Source: an uncultured Candidatus Micrarchaeota archaeon
GTDB taxonomy: Archaea > Micrarchaeota > Micrarchaeia > Anstonellales > Bilamarchaeaceae
Assembly: GCA_903835385.1 (NCBI GenBank)
Contig: CAILMQ010000032.1
Coordinates: 5,976-69,975 of the forward strand
Direction of reading: 5' to 3'
DNA: 64,000 nt
This document shows, piece after piece, positions 5,144-14,086 of this stretch. The notes below the pieces were generated by a model. The model was not told the DNA's origin and searched no databases. It saw only the letters and a list, made by a program, of their open reading frames with translations. Position numbers and translations under genes: made by a program. How positions within the stretch are numbered: position 1 is the stretch's first letter; every line of letters begins with the position of its first letter.

Positions 5144-5476
5144 TCATTTGCCTTCCTTGAGCTTCATGATGGCTTCGGCGATGTCCCCGTTGCACGATTC
5201 GAGCGCGGCCCTTGCGTCCTGTTCCGAGGCTCCGGCCTGCTCGGCAACCATTTTCACGTCTTCGGCGCTTACGGAGGACTCGCTGCGCACAGTGCCGGAT
5301 ATCTGGAATGACACCTGGCCCTGGGCAATGATTTTCACGACCTGCGGGTTCTCGACAATCAGCTTGCCTTCCCCGGTCTCTATGACTACGCTCCTGGCAT
5401 CAACCTCCTCCGAGTTGATGCCCATCTGCTTCATAAGCTGCTGCATGCGCTTCGGGTCCATGCCCGGAGGCATCAT
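5144..5476 (-). CDS. nac: nascent polypeptide-associated complex protein (archaeal NAC)
   Basis: NAC domain (VVIETGEGKLIVENPQVVKI) plus a C-terminal UBA-like tail (SEQDARAALESCNGDIAEAIMKL). Confidence 0.9.
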   Translation of the reverse strand: MMPPGMDPKRMQQLMKQMGINSEEVDARSVVIETGEGKLIVENPQVVKIIAQGQVSFQISGTVRSESSVSAEDVKMVAEQAGASEQDARAALESCNGDIAEAIMKLKEGK

Positions 5477-6072
5477 GCGAATACCTCTTTGAGCTCCGAC
5501 TTGCGGATTTCGACGCGCCTTATCCTGGTGATTTTCTTCAGCACGCCGTAGAGATTGGCAGTGAACTTTCCGTAGAGCACGTCCTGCATGAGCTGGTCGA
5601 AGTTCACCGCCGAGGCGGATGCGAGGATTTCCTTCACCGTGCTGGCCCGCAGGTTCCTCATGGTATTCTCGCTCACCCGCGCGCCCGTTACCACGATGGC
5701 CTTGAGCCGGATATGGACCCCGTCCTTGCTCTTTATATCCACCACCTGGTGGATGAGCGAGCGGCCCCTCCTTGCGAACGTCTTCACGAAGGAAGGCGCT
5801 ATCTCATGGCCTATGAGCTTCGTGTTTGCCGTGGTTCCCTTCACGTCGGTTATCCTGAACCGCAGCGATGTGAACATGCCCACCTGGCCAGCGCCCGTGA
5901 CGCCGATGTCGGCGAGCGTTGTCCTGATTATCCTGTTCGTAAGCTGGGCGTCCTCCGTCGCGACCACTTCGCATATCTGCCTGGAGTCGAAAATCGCCGG
6001 GGCTGAGACCGCGTACCACTTCTTCTGCTTCCATTTGTCCACTACCTTGGTTTTCTTGGCAGCCATTGGCAT
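5473..6072 (-). CDS. rps3ae: 30S ribosomal protein S3Ae (eS1)
   Basis: KKTKVVDKWKQKKWY... is the typical eS1 N-terminus. The ATG at 6072 overlaps the S15 TGA stop as TGATG. The ATG at 6066 is an alternative start. Confidence 0.9.
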   Translation of the reverse strand: MPMAAKKTKVVDKWKQKKWYAVSAPAIFDSRQICEVVATEDAQLTNRIIRTTLADIGVTGAGQVGMFTSLRFRITDVKGTTANTKLIGHEIAPSFVKTFARRGRSLIHQVVDIKSKDGVHIRLKAIVVTGARVSENTMRNLRASTVKEILASASAVNFDQLMQDVLYGKFTANLYGVLKKITRIRRVEIRKSELKEVFA

Positions 6073-6524
6073 CACTTCACGAGGAGCGCGACCTTCTCCG
6101 CATCATATTTCCAGCCGGCGGGTATCCTTTTCTTGGCGGCGTAGTACTTCACCAGCCTGCCTATCTTGGATTCCACATGCCTGAGCTTCACATGGTTGTG
6201 GATGTCCCTTCTCGTCTTGAGGTGCTCCTGCATCCGCACCGCTTTCTTGATGAGGTTCATCAGGTCGTCCGGAAAGTCCGGCAGCGCCTTCTCCTGCCTG
6301 AGGAACGAGACCACACCCATGCCCAGCACCGCCCTGGCGTTGGGTATGGCGTGCTGGTCGCGCAGCGTGAGGCCTATCCTGGTCGGAGGCACGCCCTCCT
6401 TGGCCATTTTCAGGATCATTTCCTTCACTTCGGCCTTCTTGGCGCCGGACCATTCCGGAGCTACCGTTGATTTCGGCCTTTTCGTGCCCGCCTTCCCCTT
6501 CCGTTTCGAATGTAATCTTGCTAT
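6072..6524 (-). CDS. rps15: 30S ribosomal protein S15 (uS15/S13e) with apparent ATA start
   Basis: The track ORF starts at GTG 6428, but the conserved N-terminus (ARLHSKRKGKAGTKRPKSTVAPEW) continues in frame upstream to ATA at 6524. That ATA lies 4 nt after GGTGA and 9 nt after an in-frame TGA. No ATG, GTG or TTG is available in between. Confidence 0.8.
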   Translation of the reverse strand: MARLHSKRKGKAGTKRPKSTVAPEWSGAKKAEVKEMILKMAKEGVPPTRIGLTLRDQHAIPNARAVLGMGVVSFLRQEKALPDFPDDLMNLIKKAVRMQEHLKTRRDIHNHVKLRHVESKIGRLVKYYAAKKRIPAGWKYDAEKVALLVK

Positions 6525-6533
6525 GTACTCACC

Positions 6534-7106
6534 TCAGATTTTAGTGGAGCCCTTCTGATATCCTTGGAGATACCTGGAAAACTCTGAAAGAGATTTGTAT
6601 CTATGCGATAGTTTGTTTTTTAATTGTATGTTTTGCGCGAACGTCTGAGAATGGCCTTCGGGCACGAATATGGGGTCGTAGCCGAAACCCGCCTTCCCTT
6701 CCGGCTTTTTGGGGATTGCCCCCCTGCATGCGCCCACGAACGTCCTGACGTCCCTGCCGTCCGCGGTGAACGCTATGGCAGCCCGGAATTCCGCGAACCT
6801 GTCCGGCACGCCCTCGAGCAACCTGAGTATTCCGGTGTTCCCGATTTTCTTCTGCACCCAGGCGGAGTAGGTTCCGGGAAATCCGTCGAGCACGTGGATG
6901 AAAAGCCCGGCGTCTTCCACGAATACGGGCTTTTGCACCTGGGCATAGGCGGCGCGGACGGCTTCGGTAGCGACCTCCTCGAGGCTGTCCGAACGTATTT
7001 CGTTGTGCACGAAAGGAAAGTGCCTGACATCCATGCCTTCCTTCCCGAGAATCTCCTTCGCCTCGCGGAATTTGCCGGCGTTGGATGTGGCGAAATGAAC
7101 CTCCAT
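6534..7106 (-). CDS. non-canonical purine NTP pyrophosphatase (HAM1/RdgB family)
   Basis: FATSNAGKFREA...FVEDAGLFI..L.GFPG.YSA...GFGYDPIF motifs. A TATA-like CTATAAATAT lies about 27 nt upstream of the ATG at 7106, suggesting a leaderless mRNA. Confidence 0.85.
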   Translation of the reverse strand: MEVHFATSNAGKFREAKEILGKEGMDVRHFPFVHNEIRSDSLEEVATEAVRAAYAQVQKPVFVEDAGLFIHVLDGFPGTYSAWVQKKIGNTGILRLLEGVPDRFAEFRAAIAFTADGRDVRTFVGACRGAIPKKPEGKAGFGYDPIFVPEGHSQTFAQNIQLKNKLSHRYKSLSEFSRYLQGYQKGSTKI

Positions 7107-7140
7107 GAAGAACACATGTTAATATAGATATTTATAGATA

Positions 7141-12091: not shown

Positions 12092-14086
12092 CTATTTCCT
12101 GAACTGCTTCGACATCTGCCTGATCAGCTTGTCCTTTTCTTTGCAGTCCTTCAGCGAGTGCTGCAGGACTTCCACGATGTTGTCAACCGGTACGATTTCT
12201 ATCAGGTTCTTCCGGTCCCCGGGCAGGTAGACGTCCTCCATGTTGGATTTCGGTATCAGCACCTTCTTGAGCCCGGTGTCTATGGCCGCGTCTATCTTGG
12301 AGGTCACGCCCCCCACAGGCAGCACGCCGCCGCGGACATCAAGCGAGCCGGTCATTGCAACCGACTGCTCCACGGGTATTCCTGCCATGGCCGAAATCAC
12401 GGCCACAGCGGTTGAAATCGAGGCGCTGTCCCCCTCGAGCCCCTCGTAGGTCTGGAGGAACTGGATGTGGATGTCCGTCCTGGAGATGTCCGTGCCGATG
12501 TGCTTCTTGATGATGGCAGACACGTTCTCCACGGCCTCCTTGGCTATCTGGCCGAGCTTGCCCGTGGCTATGACCTTGCCCTCGCTCCTGGACGCGGCCG
12601 GGGTCATGTCCGCCACGATGGGGAGCACGAGGCCGGCCGCGGAATTGCCGAGCACCGCGAGCCCGTTCACCCTGCCTACCGAAGCGCCGGACACCAGCAC
12701 GGTCTGGTACTCTTTTTTCTGCTCTATGAGCTTGCTGCTGAGCTGCGACTCGATGGACTTGAATATCTTTTTCGCCTTGAGCACGTGCTGGGCGTCCACA
12801 TAAAGGGCCTTTTCCTCCCTGGCCACGTCCCCTGCCGCGCGCACCAGGCCCCCGAGTTCGCGCAGGTTGAGCGTGAACTTCCTCTTGCGGCCGGCATAGC
12901 GCCTGGCTTCCTCGATGACCTCATGGACCGCGGCATAGGTGAAGTGAGGTATCTTGCCGTCCTTCCTTACCTCCTGGGCCACGAACTGGATGAGCTTGTC
13001 CTCGTTCTCCGGAGTGTCCGCCATGGTGTCTTCCACATAAACCTCATATCCGCCGCCCCGGATACGGGAGCGCAGCGCTGGATGAATCTGCTGCATGTCC
13101 GGCAGGTTGCCGGCCGCCACTAGCACGAAATCCGTGGGCACCGGCTCGGTTTTCACCAGCGCGCCGGAGCTCATCTCGCTCTGCCCGGTTATGGGGTATT
13201 TCCTCTCCTGCATGGCTGTCAGCAGCTCCTGCTGCCAGTTGAGCTTCAGCGACGCGATTTCGTCTATGAAGAGCACGCCCTTGTTGGCCCTTTGGATGGC
13301 TCCCGCCTCGACACGGAGGTGCGGCGGCGTGCCGAGGCCTCCGCTCTGAAGCGGGTCGTGCTTTATGTCGCCGAGCAGCGCGCCGGAGCGGGTTCCCGTG
13401 GCGTCAACGAACGGGGCGGTGGATTTCTCGGTGTTGTCCACTATGAGCTTGGGCCTGCCCGCCTCCTGGGGGCTCAGGCCGCGCTTGAGGCCTGAGAACG
13501 CGTTGGAGAACGCGTAGAGCACTCCCATGAACAGCAGCATGCCGGCTATGAAGAGCTTGGTGTTGTCCGGCAGGCTGGTGAAGAACCATATGGCGAGCGA
13601 TATCATTGCAAGGAACCCGAACACGAGCGCGGGCGACACCTGGTGCTGGGCGTCCACAACCCGGTTTATGGTGGTTATGCGCCGCCCTAACCCGATGCGG
13701 AGCAATGACGCGCGGGAACTGCCGTTGCCTTTTTTCGCTGCGTCCCGCAGCGCGGCGACCTCCTGGGGGGTGTAGTAGTCCCTGAATTCCTTGTGCTTGC
13801 CCAGGTAGTCCATGTCCGGGTAGGTCTTCACCACCTCTATGCGGGGCTGGTTCTCGTTGTTCTCGTTGGGGATGGCGAGCACGTCGGCCAGTTCCTCCAG
13901 CGGAAGCAGCTCGGCCATGGCCTGGGCGAGCATGGACTTGCCGGTCCCTGGCGGGCCGATGAGCAGCACGTTCCTCTTCTGGGCGGCGGCCTTCTTTATT
14001 ATCTGCACCGCGGCATCCTGGCCCACCACCTGGTCTATGGTTTTCTTCGGGACTTCAATCTCTTCCGTGGTCTTGAACTGCTTCAG
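12092..14086 (-). CDS. lon: archaeal membrane-bound Lon protease (LonB) with apparent CTG start
   Basis: Walker [13 protein letters not shown], a TM insertion, and a C-terminal Lon protease domain. The conserved [20 protein letters not shown] lies upstream of the first GTG (14029). The CTG at 14086 lies 4 nt after GGTGA and overlaps the pmbA TGA. Confidence 0.85.

What the first reader, a model, noticed from the sequence alone, without database searches (positions are those of the whole stretch)
6510..6536. rps15 can only be full length if translation starts at ATA
The conserved uS15 N-terminus, aligning to the usual M-A-R-M-H-x-R-K-R-G-K, is encoded as ATA GCA AGA TTA CAT TCG AAA CGG AAG GGG AAG. 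An in-frame TGA (the stop of the upstream ITPase gene) lies only three codons further up. There is no ATG, GTG or TTG before GTG 6428, which would delete about 32 conserved residues. The ATA at 6524 sits 4 nt after GGTGA, which is complementary to the archaeal 16S 3' end.
Basis: seen in the sequence. Interest (0 to 1): 0.6.

Follow-up and report, generated by a model that had tools for sequence, protein, structure and literature searches.

The report
Ribosomal protein S15 gene starting at ATA
In a tiny uncultured archaeon (Micrarchaeota) and at least 13 relatives, the essential ribosomal protein S15 gene has ATA or ATC where other species have ATG, so it very probably starts at this weak codon and gene finders cut the protein short.

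Summary
On the minus strand the sequence reads TGA (stop of the Ham1/ITPase gene), GGT GAG TAC, then ATA (6524-6522), then GCA AGA TTA CAT. With ATA as residue 1, the protein matches the archaeal uS15 N-terminal domain from profile position 2. The first canonical start (GTG 6428) would remove 32 residues.

It is not an assembly error:
- Contigs from four sequencing runs carry ATA.
- Fourteen distinct sequences from one Micrarchaeota clade have ATA (3) or ATC (11) at this codon.
- All 28 relatives outside the clade have ATG or GTG there.

Codons 2-20 are under strong purifying selection (pN/pS 0.16). The first canonical start downstream is not at a conserved position. S15 is single-copy. The ATA lies 5 nt after GGTG, the commonest ribosome-binding-site spacing in this genome. 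The clade's binding sites are also longer than those of ATG relatives (7.0 vs 5.3 nt).

Three other genes (lonB CTG, a glutamine-synthetase-like gene CTG, uvrA ATC) show the same pattern in this genus. aIF1 and the initiator tRNA look normal.

Best reading: Shine-Dalgarno-led initiation at a near-cognate AUA by the initiator tRNA. This kind of start is known in bacteria (infC; Deinococcus dnaA and rpsL). I found no proven archaeal case in the papers searched. No translation data exist for this organism.

The parts
6072..6524 (-). rps15 (uS15, S15P/S13e) coding sequence of 150 codons plus the TGA stop, starting at ATA
   Evidence: Translation. Pfam PF08069 matches residues 2-60 and PF00312 matches residues 83-147. 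It is the only copy in the genome.
6522..6524 (-). ATA, the proposed near-cognate initiation codon. It aligns with ATG or GTG in 28 relatives and with ATA or ATC in 13 clade members.
   Evidence: Alignments A1, A2, A3 and A4. Per-sequence table. Contigs from four runs carry ATA.
6529..6535 (-). Shine-Dalgarno site GAGGTGA, 7 nt complementary to the 16S 3' end. The GGTG core lies 5 nt before ATA.
   Evidence: The 16S 3' end reads ...GATCACCTCCA in G000 contig C24. A 5-nt GGTG-to-start spacing is the most common in this genome, in 67 of 140 cases.
6534..6536 (-). TGA stop of the upstream Ham1/ITPase gene. It is in frame with rps15, four codons upstream of ATA (three codons lie between).
   Evidence: The ORF 6534..7115 matches PF01725.
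6426..6428 (-). GTG, the first canonical start codon (codon 33). Gene callers use it and produce a truncated 118-aa product.
   Evidence: Truncated public gene calls P0005 and P0011 (118 aa), P0001 (130 aa), P0058 (123 aa) and P0065 (111 aa) appear.
6537..7115 (-). Ham1/ITPase gene directly upstream in the same operon. Terminating ribosomes would be released 9 nt before the ATA.
   Evidence: The same gene order Ham1-S15-S3Ae-NAC occurs in relatives.
5473..6075 (-). rps3ae (eS1/S3Ae) gene directly downstream. Its start overlaps the rps15 stop.
   Evidence: PF01015, E 3.5e-46.

Best explanation
The uS15 gene of this Micrarchaeota (DPANN) archaeon is translated from the near-cognate codon AUA at 6524-6522.

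Proposed steps:
- The 30S subunit is anchored by a 7-nt Shine-Dalgarno pairing (GAGGUGA with the 16S 3' end ...GAUCACCUCC). This places the codon 5 nt downstream of GGUG in the P site.
- Met-tRNAi (anticodon CAU, normal in this genome) pairs with A-U at the first two positions and tolerates a third-position mismatch. The protein therefore begins with Met, which is probably removed before Ala.
- Ribosomes that terminate on the Ham1 gene 9 nt upstream may add to initiation, but they are not strictly required.

Shown: the ATG-to-ATH change is old. It is shared by a whole clade (ATC in 11 sequences, ATA in 3), is kept under purifying selection of the downstream codons, and is accompanied by longer SD complementarity.

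Inferred: the identity of the initiating tRNA and amino acid, the efficiency of initiation, and the share contributed by coupling.
For: 1. Anatomy. A stop lies four codons upstream of ATA (three codons between), and there is no canonical start before codon 33. The Pfam uS15 N-terminal domain matches from profile position 2 at residue 2.

2. Not an error. Contigs from four runs carry ATA. G002, a single-contig 1.57-Mb chromosome (OY970229.1), has ATC, and G001 has ATA.

3. Clade-wide pattern. 14 distinct sequences have ATH and 28 relatives have ATG or GTG. Eight of the 14 have an in-frame stop 4-5 codons upstream and no canonical start at all. The tree is compatible with a single origin: the canonical rows fall on one side of a branch, with support 73/77.

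4. The N-terminus is translated. pN/pS is 0.155 for codons 2-20, against 0.26 for later codons, with pS about 0.63-0.70. The first downstream canonical codon is not at a conserved position.

5. SD geometry. GGTG plus 5 nt is the commonest spacing in this genome. SD complementarity averages 7.0 nt in the ATH clade against 5.3 nt in canonical relatives (Mann-Whitney p = 2e-5, not corrected for phylogeny).

6. An adjacent upstream stop is not needed. In L033 a roughly 100-nt insertion separates the Ham1 stop from the SD and ATC, yet ATC is kept.

7. The same pattern occurs in other genes of this genus. lonB has CTG in 3 of 3 genus genomes. The GS-like gene has CTG in two, with TTG, GTG or ATG elsewhere. 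uvrA has ATC in two, with ATG in G007. All have GGTG plus 5 nt.

8. Precedent. In Deinococcus, dnaA (ATC) and rpsL (CTG) starts are backed by peptide data and an infC ATA start is inferred from alignment (PMC2830850). Near-cognate putative initiation sites were seen in Haloferax ribosome profiling (PMC7261190).
Against: There is no direct translation evidence. No RNA runs hold the locus, and no proteomics or ribosome profiling exists for this uncultured organism.

aIF1 is reported to discriminate against non-canonical starts in archaea (PMC6237735). A weak start is also odd for a stoichiometric ribosomal protein.

Six of the 14 clade members have the GTG of GGTG in frame three codons upstream, overlapping the Ham1 stop as GTGA. 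They might initiate there instead, so the mechanism may not be uniform across the clade.

The SD-strength comparison is not phylogenetically independent.

aIF1 and tRNAi show no change that would explain relaxed fidelity.
Confidence: 0.8

Rival explanations
1. Initiation at ATA occurs mainly or only by termination-reinitiation. Ribosomes finishing the Ham1/ITPase ORF at the TGA 9 nt upstream stay on the mRNA, are held by the SD, and restart at the nearest acceptable codon. The weak codon would work only because of this translational coupling.
For: The Ham1 stop lies inside or next to the SD in 13 of 14 clade members. It is 9-12 nt before ATH in the 5-nt-spacer group, and it overlaps the in-frame GTG as GTGA in at least L041 and L045 of the 6-nt-spacer group. 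The lonB CTG start in this window overlaps the upstream gene's stop as CTGA.
Against: In L033 and L034 a roughly 100-nt insertion with a 9-bp target duplication separates the Ham1 stop from the SD and ATC, yet ATC persists. The near-cognate starts of uvrA and the GS-like gene follow A/T-rich, TATA-like intergenic sequence rather than an upstream ORF end. Tight Ham1-S15 junctions also occur in relatives that keep ATG, so the junction is not specific to ATH.
Confidence: 0.15
2. The N-terminal 32 codons are not translated. S15 starts at GTG 6428 and is a shortened protein in this lineage.
For: GTG 6428 is the first canonical start and is what gene callers choose.
Against: pN/pS is 0.155 over codons 2-20, with near-saturated synonymous change. 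The first canonical codon downstream sits at a different position in different clade members. No SD precedes GTG 6428 (read directly from the sequence). The deleted part belongs to a conserved Pfam domain.
Confidence: 0.03
3. Assembly or consensus error, or a pseudogene. The true codon is ATG, or the gene is dead.
For: The genome is a MAG (89% complete, 68 contigs). G002 has a T5 homopolymer in the spacer.
Against: Contigs from four runs agree on ATA. Fourteen distinct sequences from different samples and assemblers have ATH. The gene is single-copy, essential and under purifying selection.
Confidence: 0.01
4. S15 is made as a Ham1-S15 fusion by readthrough of the in-frame TGA, or by a frameshift from the out-of-frame GTG inside GGTG.
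For: In the window the Ham1 stop is in frame with rps15.
Against: The stop is TAA in L003 and L048. Ham1 is in a different frame in the 6-nt-spacer group. TGA ends rps15 itself at the conserved ...LLVK C-terminus. The out-of-frame GTG runs into TAG after three codons in the window (read directly from the sequence).
Confidence: 0.01

Closest known systems
Conserved non-canonical start codons in Deinococcus-Thermus: dnaA ATC, rpsL CTG, infC ATA (Baudet et al. 2010, PMC2830850)
   Same: Housekeeping genes, including a ribosomal protein gene, start at ATC, CTG or ATA. The codon is conserved across a clade. It was recognised because the conserved N-terminus lies upstream of any canonical start, and annotations were truncated.
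   Different: Those cases are bacterial (IF3 and fMet-tRNA system), and two were proven by N-terminal peptide mass spectrometry. The present case is archaeal (aIF1, aIF1A and aIF2 with Met-tRNAi), from an uncultured DPANN organism, with no protein data.
E. coli infC (AUU) and pcnB (AUU) weak start codons
   Same: A third-position near-cognate of AUG (AUH) sits behind an SD and is evolutionarily conserved.
   Different: The infC AUU is part of a demonstrated autoregulatory loop, in which IF3 discriminates against its own start codon. No such loop is known or shown for archaeal uS15. uS15 is not an initiation-fidelity factor.
Start codons listed in NCBI translation table 11 (ATG, GTG, TTG, CTG, ATT, ATC, ATA)
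   Same: ATA is formally an allowed prokaryotic initiator in this table.
   Different: Common gene callers use only ATG, GTG and TTG, so public gene calls for this clade are truncated (111-130 aa instead of 150).
Suspected atypical start (CTG or slippage) of the haloarchaeal HVO_1510 orthologues (Pfeiffer and Dyall-Smith 2021, PMC8305020), and near-cognate putative initiation sites in Haloferax ribosome profiling (PMC7261190)
   Same: These are archaeal genes whose conserved or proteomically observed N-terminal part lies upstream of any canonical start.
   Different: Those cases are unresolved, mostly in leaderless haloarchaeal mRNAs. The present case has a clear SD-spaced codon that aligns with ATG in outgroups.

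Membership tests
Ribosomal protein uS15 (archaeal/eukaryotic S15P/S13e) | Ribosomal_S13_N domain (PF08069) followed by Ribosomal_S15 domain (PF00312), about 150 aa in total | tested here: met
   PF08069 matches residues 2-60 (profile 2-60 of 60, E 2.6e-20) and PF00312 matches residues 83-147 (E 7.7e-10). There are 259 homologues, mostly 151 aa.
Near-cognate (non-ATG/GTG/TTG) prokaryotic initiation codon | The homology-defined N-terminus lies upstream of the first canonical start, with no canonical codon back to the in-frame stop | tested here: met
   The same holds in 8 of 14 clade sequences.
Near-cognate (non-ATG/GTG/TTG) prokaryotic initiation codon | The candidate codon differs from AUG at one position and aligns exactly with the canonical start codon of orthologues | tested here: met
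   ATA or ATC aligns with ATG (26) or GTG (2) in 28 relatives.
Near-cognate (non-ATG/GTG/TTG) prokaryotic initiation codon | A ribosome-binding site at functional spacing | tested here: met
   GAGGTGA is complementary to the genome's own 16S 3' end. GGTG plus 5 nt is the commonest spacing in this genome.
Near-cognate (non-ATG/GTG/TTG) prokaryotic initiation codon | The region between the candidate codon and the first canonical start evolves as coding sequence | tested here: met
   pN/pS is 0.155 for codons 2-20 and 0.21 for codons 2-32, against 0.26 downstream.
Near-cognate (non-ATG/GTG/TTG) prokaryotic initiation codon | Direct demonstration of the protein N-terminus or of an initiating ribosome at the codon | not testable with these tools
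   No RNA runs hold the locus. The organism is uncultured and no proteomics is available.
infC-type autoregulatory weak start codon | The gene product, or a factor it controls, discriminates against the abnormal start codon, creating feedback | not testable with these tools
   No known link exists between uS15 and start-codon discrimination. aIF1 is present and unremarkable.
Translational coupling by termination-reinitiation | The downstream start overlaps, or lies within a few nt of, the upstream ORF's stop, and depends on upstream translation | tested here: inconclusive
   The distance is 9 nt in the window. L033 keeps ATC more than 100 nt from the Ham1 stop. Dependence on upstream translation cannot be tested in silico.

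The most novel reading that the evidence does not exclude
The AUH start of rps15 is maintained by selection rather than merely tolerated. This Micrarchaeota lineage would have a stable, SD-compensated use of near-cognate start codons (AUA, AUC, CUG) on a growing set of housekeeping genes. The order of appearance would be rps15 first, then lonB, then uvrA and the GS-like gene. Such codons could act as an expression dial that couples the output of these genes to initiation-factor (aIF1) activity or to translation of the upstream gene, an archaeal analogue of the bacterial infC logic. Supporting hints are weak. Synonymous sites are nearly saturated, yet the third base changed from C to A three times and never to G or T in 14 lineages. 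SD pairing is also systematically longer.
Probability: 0.15. Interest if true: 0.7.

Novelty: new member of a known kind. Interest (0 to 1): 0.45.

Why it matters
Annotation. Standard gene callers truncate uS15 in this clade to 111-130 aa in public databases, or begin it at the GTG inside the ribosome-binding site. They do the same to lonB, uvrA and a glutamine-synthetase-like gene. This distorts protein families, phylogenomic marker alignments and completeness estimates for DPANN archaea.

Biology. In the papers I searched I found no archaeal gene with a proven start outside AUG, GUG or UUG. A clade-conserved AUA/AUC start on an essential, stoichiometric ribosomal protein gives a concrete test case. 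It has a strong SD and apparently normal aIF1 and initiator tRNA. It can be used to measure how far SD anchoring overrides start-codon proofreading in the archaeal, eukaryote-like initiation machinery.

Limits. The organism is uncultured, and similar cases have been noted elsewhere in this scan. The single case is therefore of moderate rather than high interest.

Tried and rejected
1. Sequencing or consensus error. Rejected on contigs from four runs and 13 further ATH sequences.

2. A second, intact rps15 copy. There is none in G000, and only one match in the single-contig G002 chromosome.

3. Genome-wide enrichment of ATH after GGTG. A crude count shows none (ATA 11, ATC 9, ATT 10, against ATG 111 and a background of 4-40 per codon). 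With a coding-potential filter, only near-cognate codons survive among the non-canonical ones (uvrA ATC and GS-like CTG). Near-cognate starts are therefore rare exceptions, about 4-6 among 809 confident ORFs, and not a changed rule.

4. Loss or alteration of aIF1. PF01253 is present in all three genus genomes, and all invariant columns are kept.

5. Abnormal initiator tRNA. The tRNA at C16:2131-2205 is a normal archaeal initiator (A1, GGG/CCC anticodon stem, CAU anticodon).

6. AUA reassigned to Met. This is incompatible with ATC in 11 of 14 clade members.

7. TGA readthrough fusion, or a frameshift from the GTG in the SD. Neither the stop type nor the frame is conserved.

8. A splicing (BHB intron) route to an AUG. 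I considered it because other notes from this scan report BHB introns in protein-coding genes of this genome. There is no ATG in the 50 nt upstream and no conserved helix, so I did not pursue it.

9. RNA evidence. No RNA runs are served for this locus.

10. The DUF460-like ATC candidate (C15:19222-19713). Pfam matches only profile positions 31-135, so a frame lesion is as likely as an ATC start. I left it open.

11. The Python box received only some of the loci, so I could not repeat the genome-wide survey in G002 or other relatives.

Full report
**Observation**

On the minus strand the window reads ...AAA ATC TGA(6536-6534) GGT GAG TAC ATA(6524-6522) GCA AGA TTA CAT TCG AAA CGG AAG GGG AAG.... 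This translates to *GEY-IARLHSKRKGKAGTKRPK... and stays open to the TGA at 6074-6072.
- The mechanical ORF list gives the gene as 6072..6428, starting at GTG, 118 aa.
- With ATA as residue 1 (150 aa), Pfam Ribosomal_S13_N matches residues 2-60 to profile positions 2-60 of 60 (E 2.6e-20). Ribosomal_S15 matches residues 83-147.
- The upstream ORF is Ham1/ITPase, and its stop is the in-frame TGA. The downstream gene is S3Ae.

**Organism**

The window is contig C32:5976-69975 of a 1.29-Mb, 68-contig MAG that is 89% complete. Its closest genome, with 92% identical S15, is OY970229.1, 'uncultured Candidatus Micrarchaeota archaeon MFD01476.bin.c.6', a single 1.57-Mb chromosome. This is a DPANN archaeon found in peat and freshwater sediment.

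**Not an error**

Logan contigs from four runs in two studies cover 6522-6524. None differs there, and the only variant is C>T at 6501 in one run.

More decisively, the homologous codon is ATC in G002 and ATA in G001, the two other species of the GTDB genus. It is ATG (25) or GTG (2) in the 27 other relatives from the family and order.

Metagenome contigs and public gene calls add further members. In alignment A4, 14 distinct sequences carry ATH at this codon. ATC occurs 11 times. ATA occurs 3 times (window, L047, L003). All outgroups carry ATG or GTG.

Public gene callers handled these genes in two ways. Some truncated them: P0001 at 130 aa, P0005 and P0011 at 118 aa, P0058 at 123 aa, P0065 at 111 aa. 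Others started them at a GTG three codons upstream, as in P0002-P0009, which begin V/M-x-x-I-A-R/K-L-H.

**Anatomy across the clade**

- Eight of the 14, including the window, G002 and G001, have GGTG + 5 nt + ATH. They have an in-frame stop 4-5 codons upstream and no canonical start.
- Six have GGTG + 6 nt + ATC. In these the GTG of the Shine-Dalgarno core is in frame at position -3. In at least L041 and L045 it overlaps the Ham1 stop as GTGA.
- The spacer state flips at least two to three times on the tree, even between the sister sequences L049 (6 nt) and L033 (5 nt). ATH never changes to ATG.
- The two residues between the GTG and the Ile codon are not conserved (I-Y, I-I, I-N, V-I, I-T, G-I). 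They look like spacer rather than coding sequence.
- The canonical sequences fall on one side of a branch (support 73/77, 66% of bootstrap trees). A single ATG-to-ATH event is therefore compatible with the data.

**The N-terminal part is translated**

Within the clade, codons 2-20 have pS 0.63 and pN 0.098 (pN/pS 0.155). Codons 2-32 give 0.21 and the following 60 codons give 0.26. The first downstream canonical codon lies at codon 21, 22, 26, 28, 33 or 40 depending on the sequence, and at a TTG at codon 4 in L045, which also has the in-frame upstream GTG. No conserved internal start exists.

S15 is single-copy in G000 and in the single-contig G002 chromosome. Initiation must therefore occur at or before codon 2. 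In eight sequences the only candidate is ATH.

**Ribosome-binding site**

The genome's 16S rRNA ends ...CTGCGGATAGATCACCTCCA, so the ideal SD is GGAGGTGATC. The window has GAGGTGA (6535-6529).

Among 809 confident ORFs, 140 have GGTG within 14 nt of the first canonical start. The commonest spacing is 5 nt (67 cases), followed by 7 nt (31 cases). The ATA sits at that commonest spacing.

Upstream of rps15, contiguous SD complementarity averages 7.0 nt (range 6-8, n=14) in the ATH clade. It averages 5.3 nt (range 3-8, n=28) in relatives with canonical starts. Mann-Whitney p is 2e-5. This test is not corrected for phylogeny and assumes the same anti-SD everywhere. It is consistent with compensation for a weak start codon but does not prove it.

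**Coupling to the upstream gene**

The Ham1 stop lies 9 nt before ATA in the window, so termination-reinitiation could contribute. In L033 and L034, however, a hairpin-rich insertion of about 100 nt sits exactly in the SD. It is flanked by a 9-bp duplication, GAGGTGATT. It moves the Ham1 stop more than 100 nt away, and rps15 still starts ATC 5 nt after the second GGTG. Coupling is therefore not strictly required.

**Not the only case in this genome**

I ran a survey of GGTG + 4-7 nt + any codon. It required an upstream stop, no canonical start within 15 codons, and a codon-usage filter. Among non-canonical codons only near-cognates survived: ATC (uvrA) and CTG (a glutamine-synthetase-like gene). 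A second survey of coding-like extensions upstream of first canonical starts added lonB. Comparison with relatives gave the following.

| Gene | This genus | Other relatives |
|---|---|---|
| lonB | CAGGTG(A/G)TATC-CTG in all three genus genomes | ATG in four other genera |
| GS-like gene | AGAGGTGGTATT-CTG in G000 and G002 | TTG in G001, GTG in G003, ATG in three others. Gln-synt_N profile 2-80 lies at residues 16-92 of the CTG-started protein. |
| uvrA | GGTG + 5 nt + ATC in G000 and G002 | ATG in G007 |

The four events have different phylogenetic depths. rps15 is the deepest, then lonB, then uvrA and the GS-like gene. This looks like gradual accumulation in the lineage.

Earlier notes from this scan on the same genome (e1-2786497 for lonB, e1-4894510 for the GS-like gene) reached the same reading for two of these. 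I re-derived both independently.

**Machinery**

- aIF1 (SUI1, PF01253) is present in all three genus genomes. It retains every column that is invariant across 17 relatives.
- The initiator tRNA is ordinary: A1, a GGG/CCC anticodon stem and anticodon CAU.

Nothing explains a relaxed start-codon check. The crude genome-wide count shows that ATH starts are exceptions, about 0.5% of confident ORFs, rather than a new rule.

**Mechanism proposed**

The proposal is SD-anchored initiation with Met-tRNAi reading AUA, with a mismatch at the third codon position. Ribosomes terminating on Ham1 may assist.

This fits the model for SD-bearing archaeal mRNAs in which the initiator tRNA samples triplets near the P site after SD pairing. 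It also has to accommodate aIF1 being reported to disfavour non-AUG complexes (PMC6237735).

The initiating residue (Met), its removal before Ala, and the efficiency of initiation are inferences.

**Comparison with known cases**

- The closest documented parallel is bacterial. In Deinococcus, dnaA (ATC) and rpsL (CTG) starts are backed by peptide data and are conserved in the phylum, while an infC ATA start is inferred from alignment. The authors note that CTG, ATT, ATA and ATC starts were known in only a few cases (PMC2830850).
- In archaea, Haloferax ribosome profiling found that about 30% of putative alternative initiation sites were near-cognate, but set them aside (PMC7261190).
- An atypical start (in-frame CTG, or an out-of-frame ATG with ribosomal slippage) is suspected for HVO_1510 orthologues (PMC8305020).

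I found no demonstrated archaeal AUA or AUC start in the papers searched. That search covers open-access literature only.

**Verdict**

It is a new, well-supported archaeal member of a known kind, the near-cognate start codon. It is conserved across a Micrarchaeota clade on an essential ribosomal-protein gene and is accompanied by a handful of similar cases in the same genus.

It has immediate value for annotation and moderate value for biology. Similar cases have been noted in other archaeal lineages by this scan. Those are unchecked AI notes and are not used as evidence here.

Noticed in passing
window 14084-14086 (minus strand); G000:C32:20059-20061: lonB (archaeal Lon protease) has CTG where other genera have ATG. 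It lies 5 nt after GGTG and overlaps the upstream gene's TGA stop as CTGA. The CTG is conserved in all three genomes of the genus. The first canonical start (GTG, window 14029) would remove the conserved [11 protein letters not shown]-terminus.
   Followed up: partly
G000 contig C15:34595-35965 (+), outside the window: A glutamine-synthetase-like gene starts at CTG (AGAGGTGGTATT-CTG) in G000 and G002. The homologous codon is TTG in G001, GTG in G003 and ATG in three other genera. The first canonical start lies 56 codons downstream, inside the Gln-synt_N domain.
   Followed up: partly
G000 contig C57:10105-12948 (+), outside the window: uvrA starts at ATC (GGTGAAACC-ATC). The same GGTG + 5 nt + ATC occurs in G002, and G007 has ATG. 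The conserved DKIxIxGAREHNLKN motif lies before the first canonical GTG at codon 18. In G002 an in-frame GTG lies six codons after the ATC.
   Followed up: partly
L033:1493-1609 (metagenome contig Ga0315293_10009445; also L034): A hairpin-rich insertion of about 100 nt, flanked by a 9-bp direct duplication (GAGGTGATT), sits exactly in the Shine-Dalgarno site between Ham1 and rps15. It looks like a MITE-type mobile element with a target-site duplication that regenerated the SD.
   Followed up: no
G000 contig C53:5693 (+), and C15:19222-19713 (-): Two further possible non-canonical starts. A HisA-like gene has TAG-GGTGAAAGG-CTG. A DUF460-like gene has GAGGATGATTCA-ATC, but Pfam covers only profile positions 31-135, so a frame lesion is equally possible.
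   Followed up: no
L074 (G006, another genus of the family), lonB start region: lonB there reads GGTGGTTTC-ATA-GTA-AAA-AAC-TTT-AAG. This suggests a possible ATA start (GGTG + 5 nt) in a different genus. I did not check for in-frame upstream canonical starts.
   Followed up: no
Public protein clusters P0001, P0005, P0011, P0058, P0065 and P0002-P0009: Public gene calls for uS15 in this clade are either truncated by 20-39 residues or begin at the GTG inside the ribosome-binding site, giving V/M-x-x-I-A-R-L-H. This is a systematic annotation artefact that affects a phylogenomic marker protein.
   Followed up: yes
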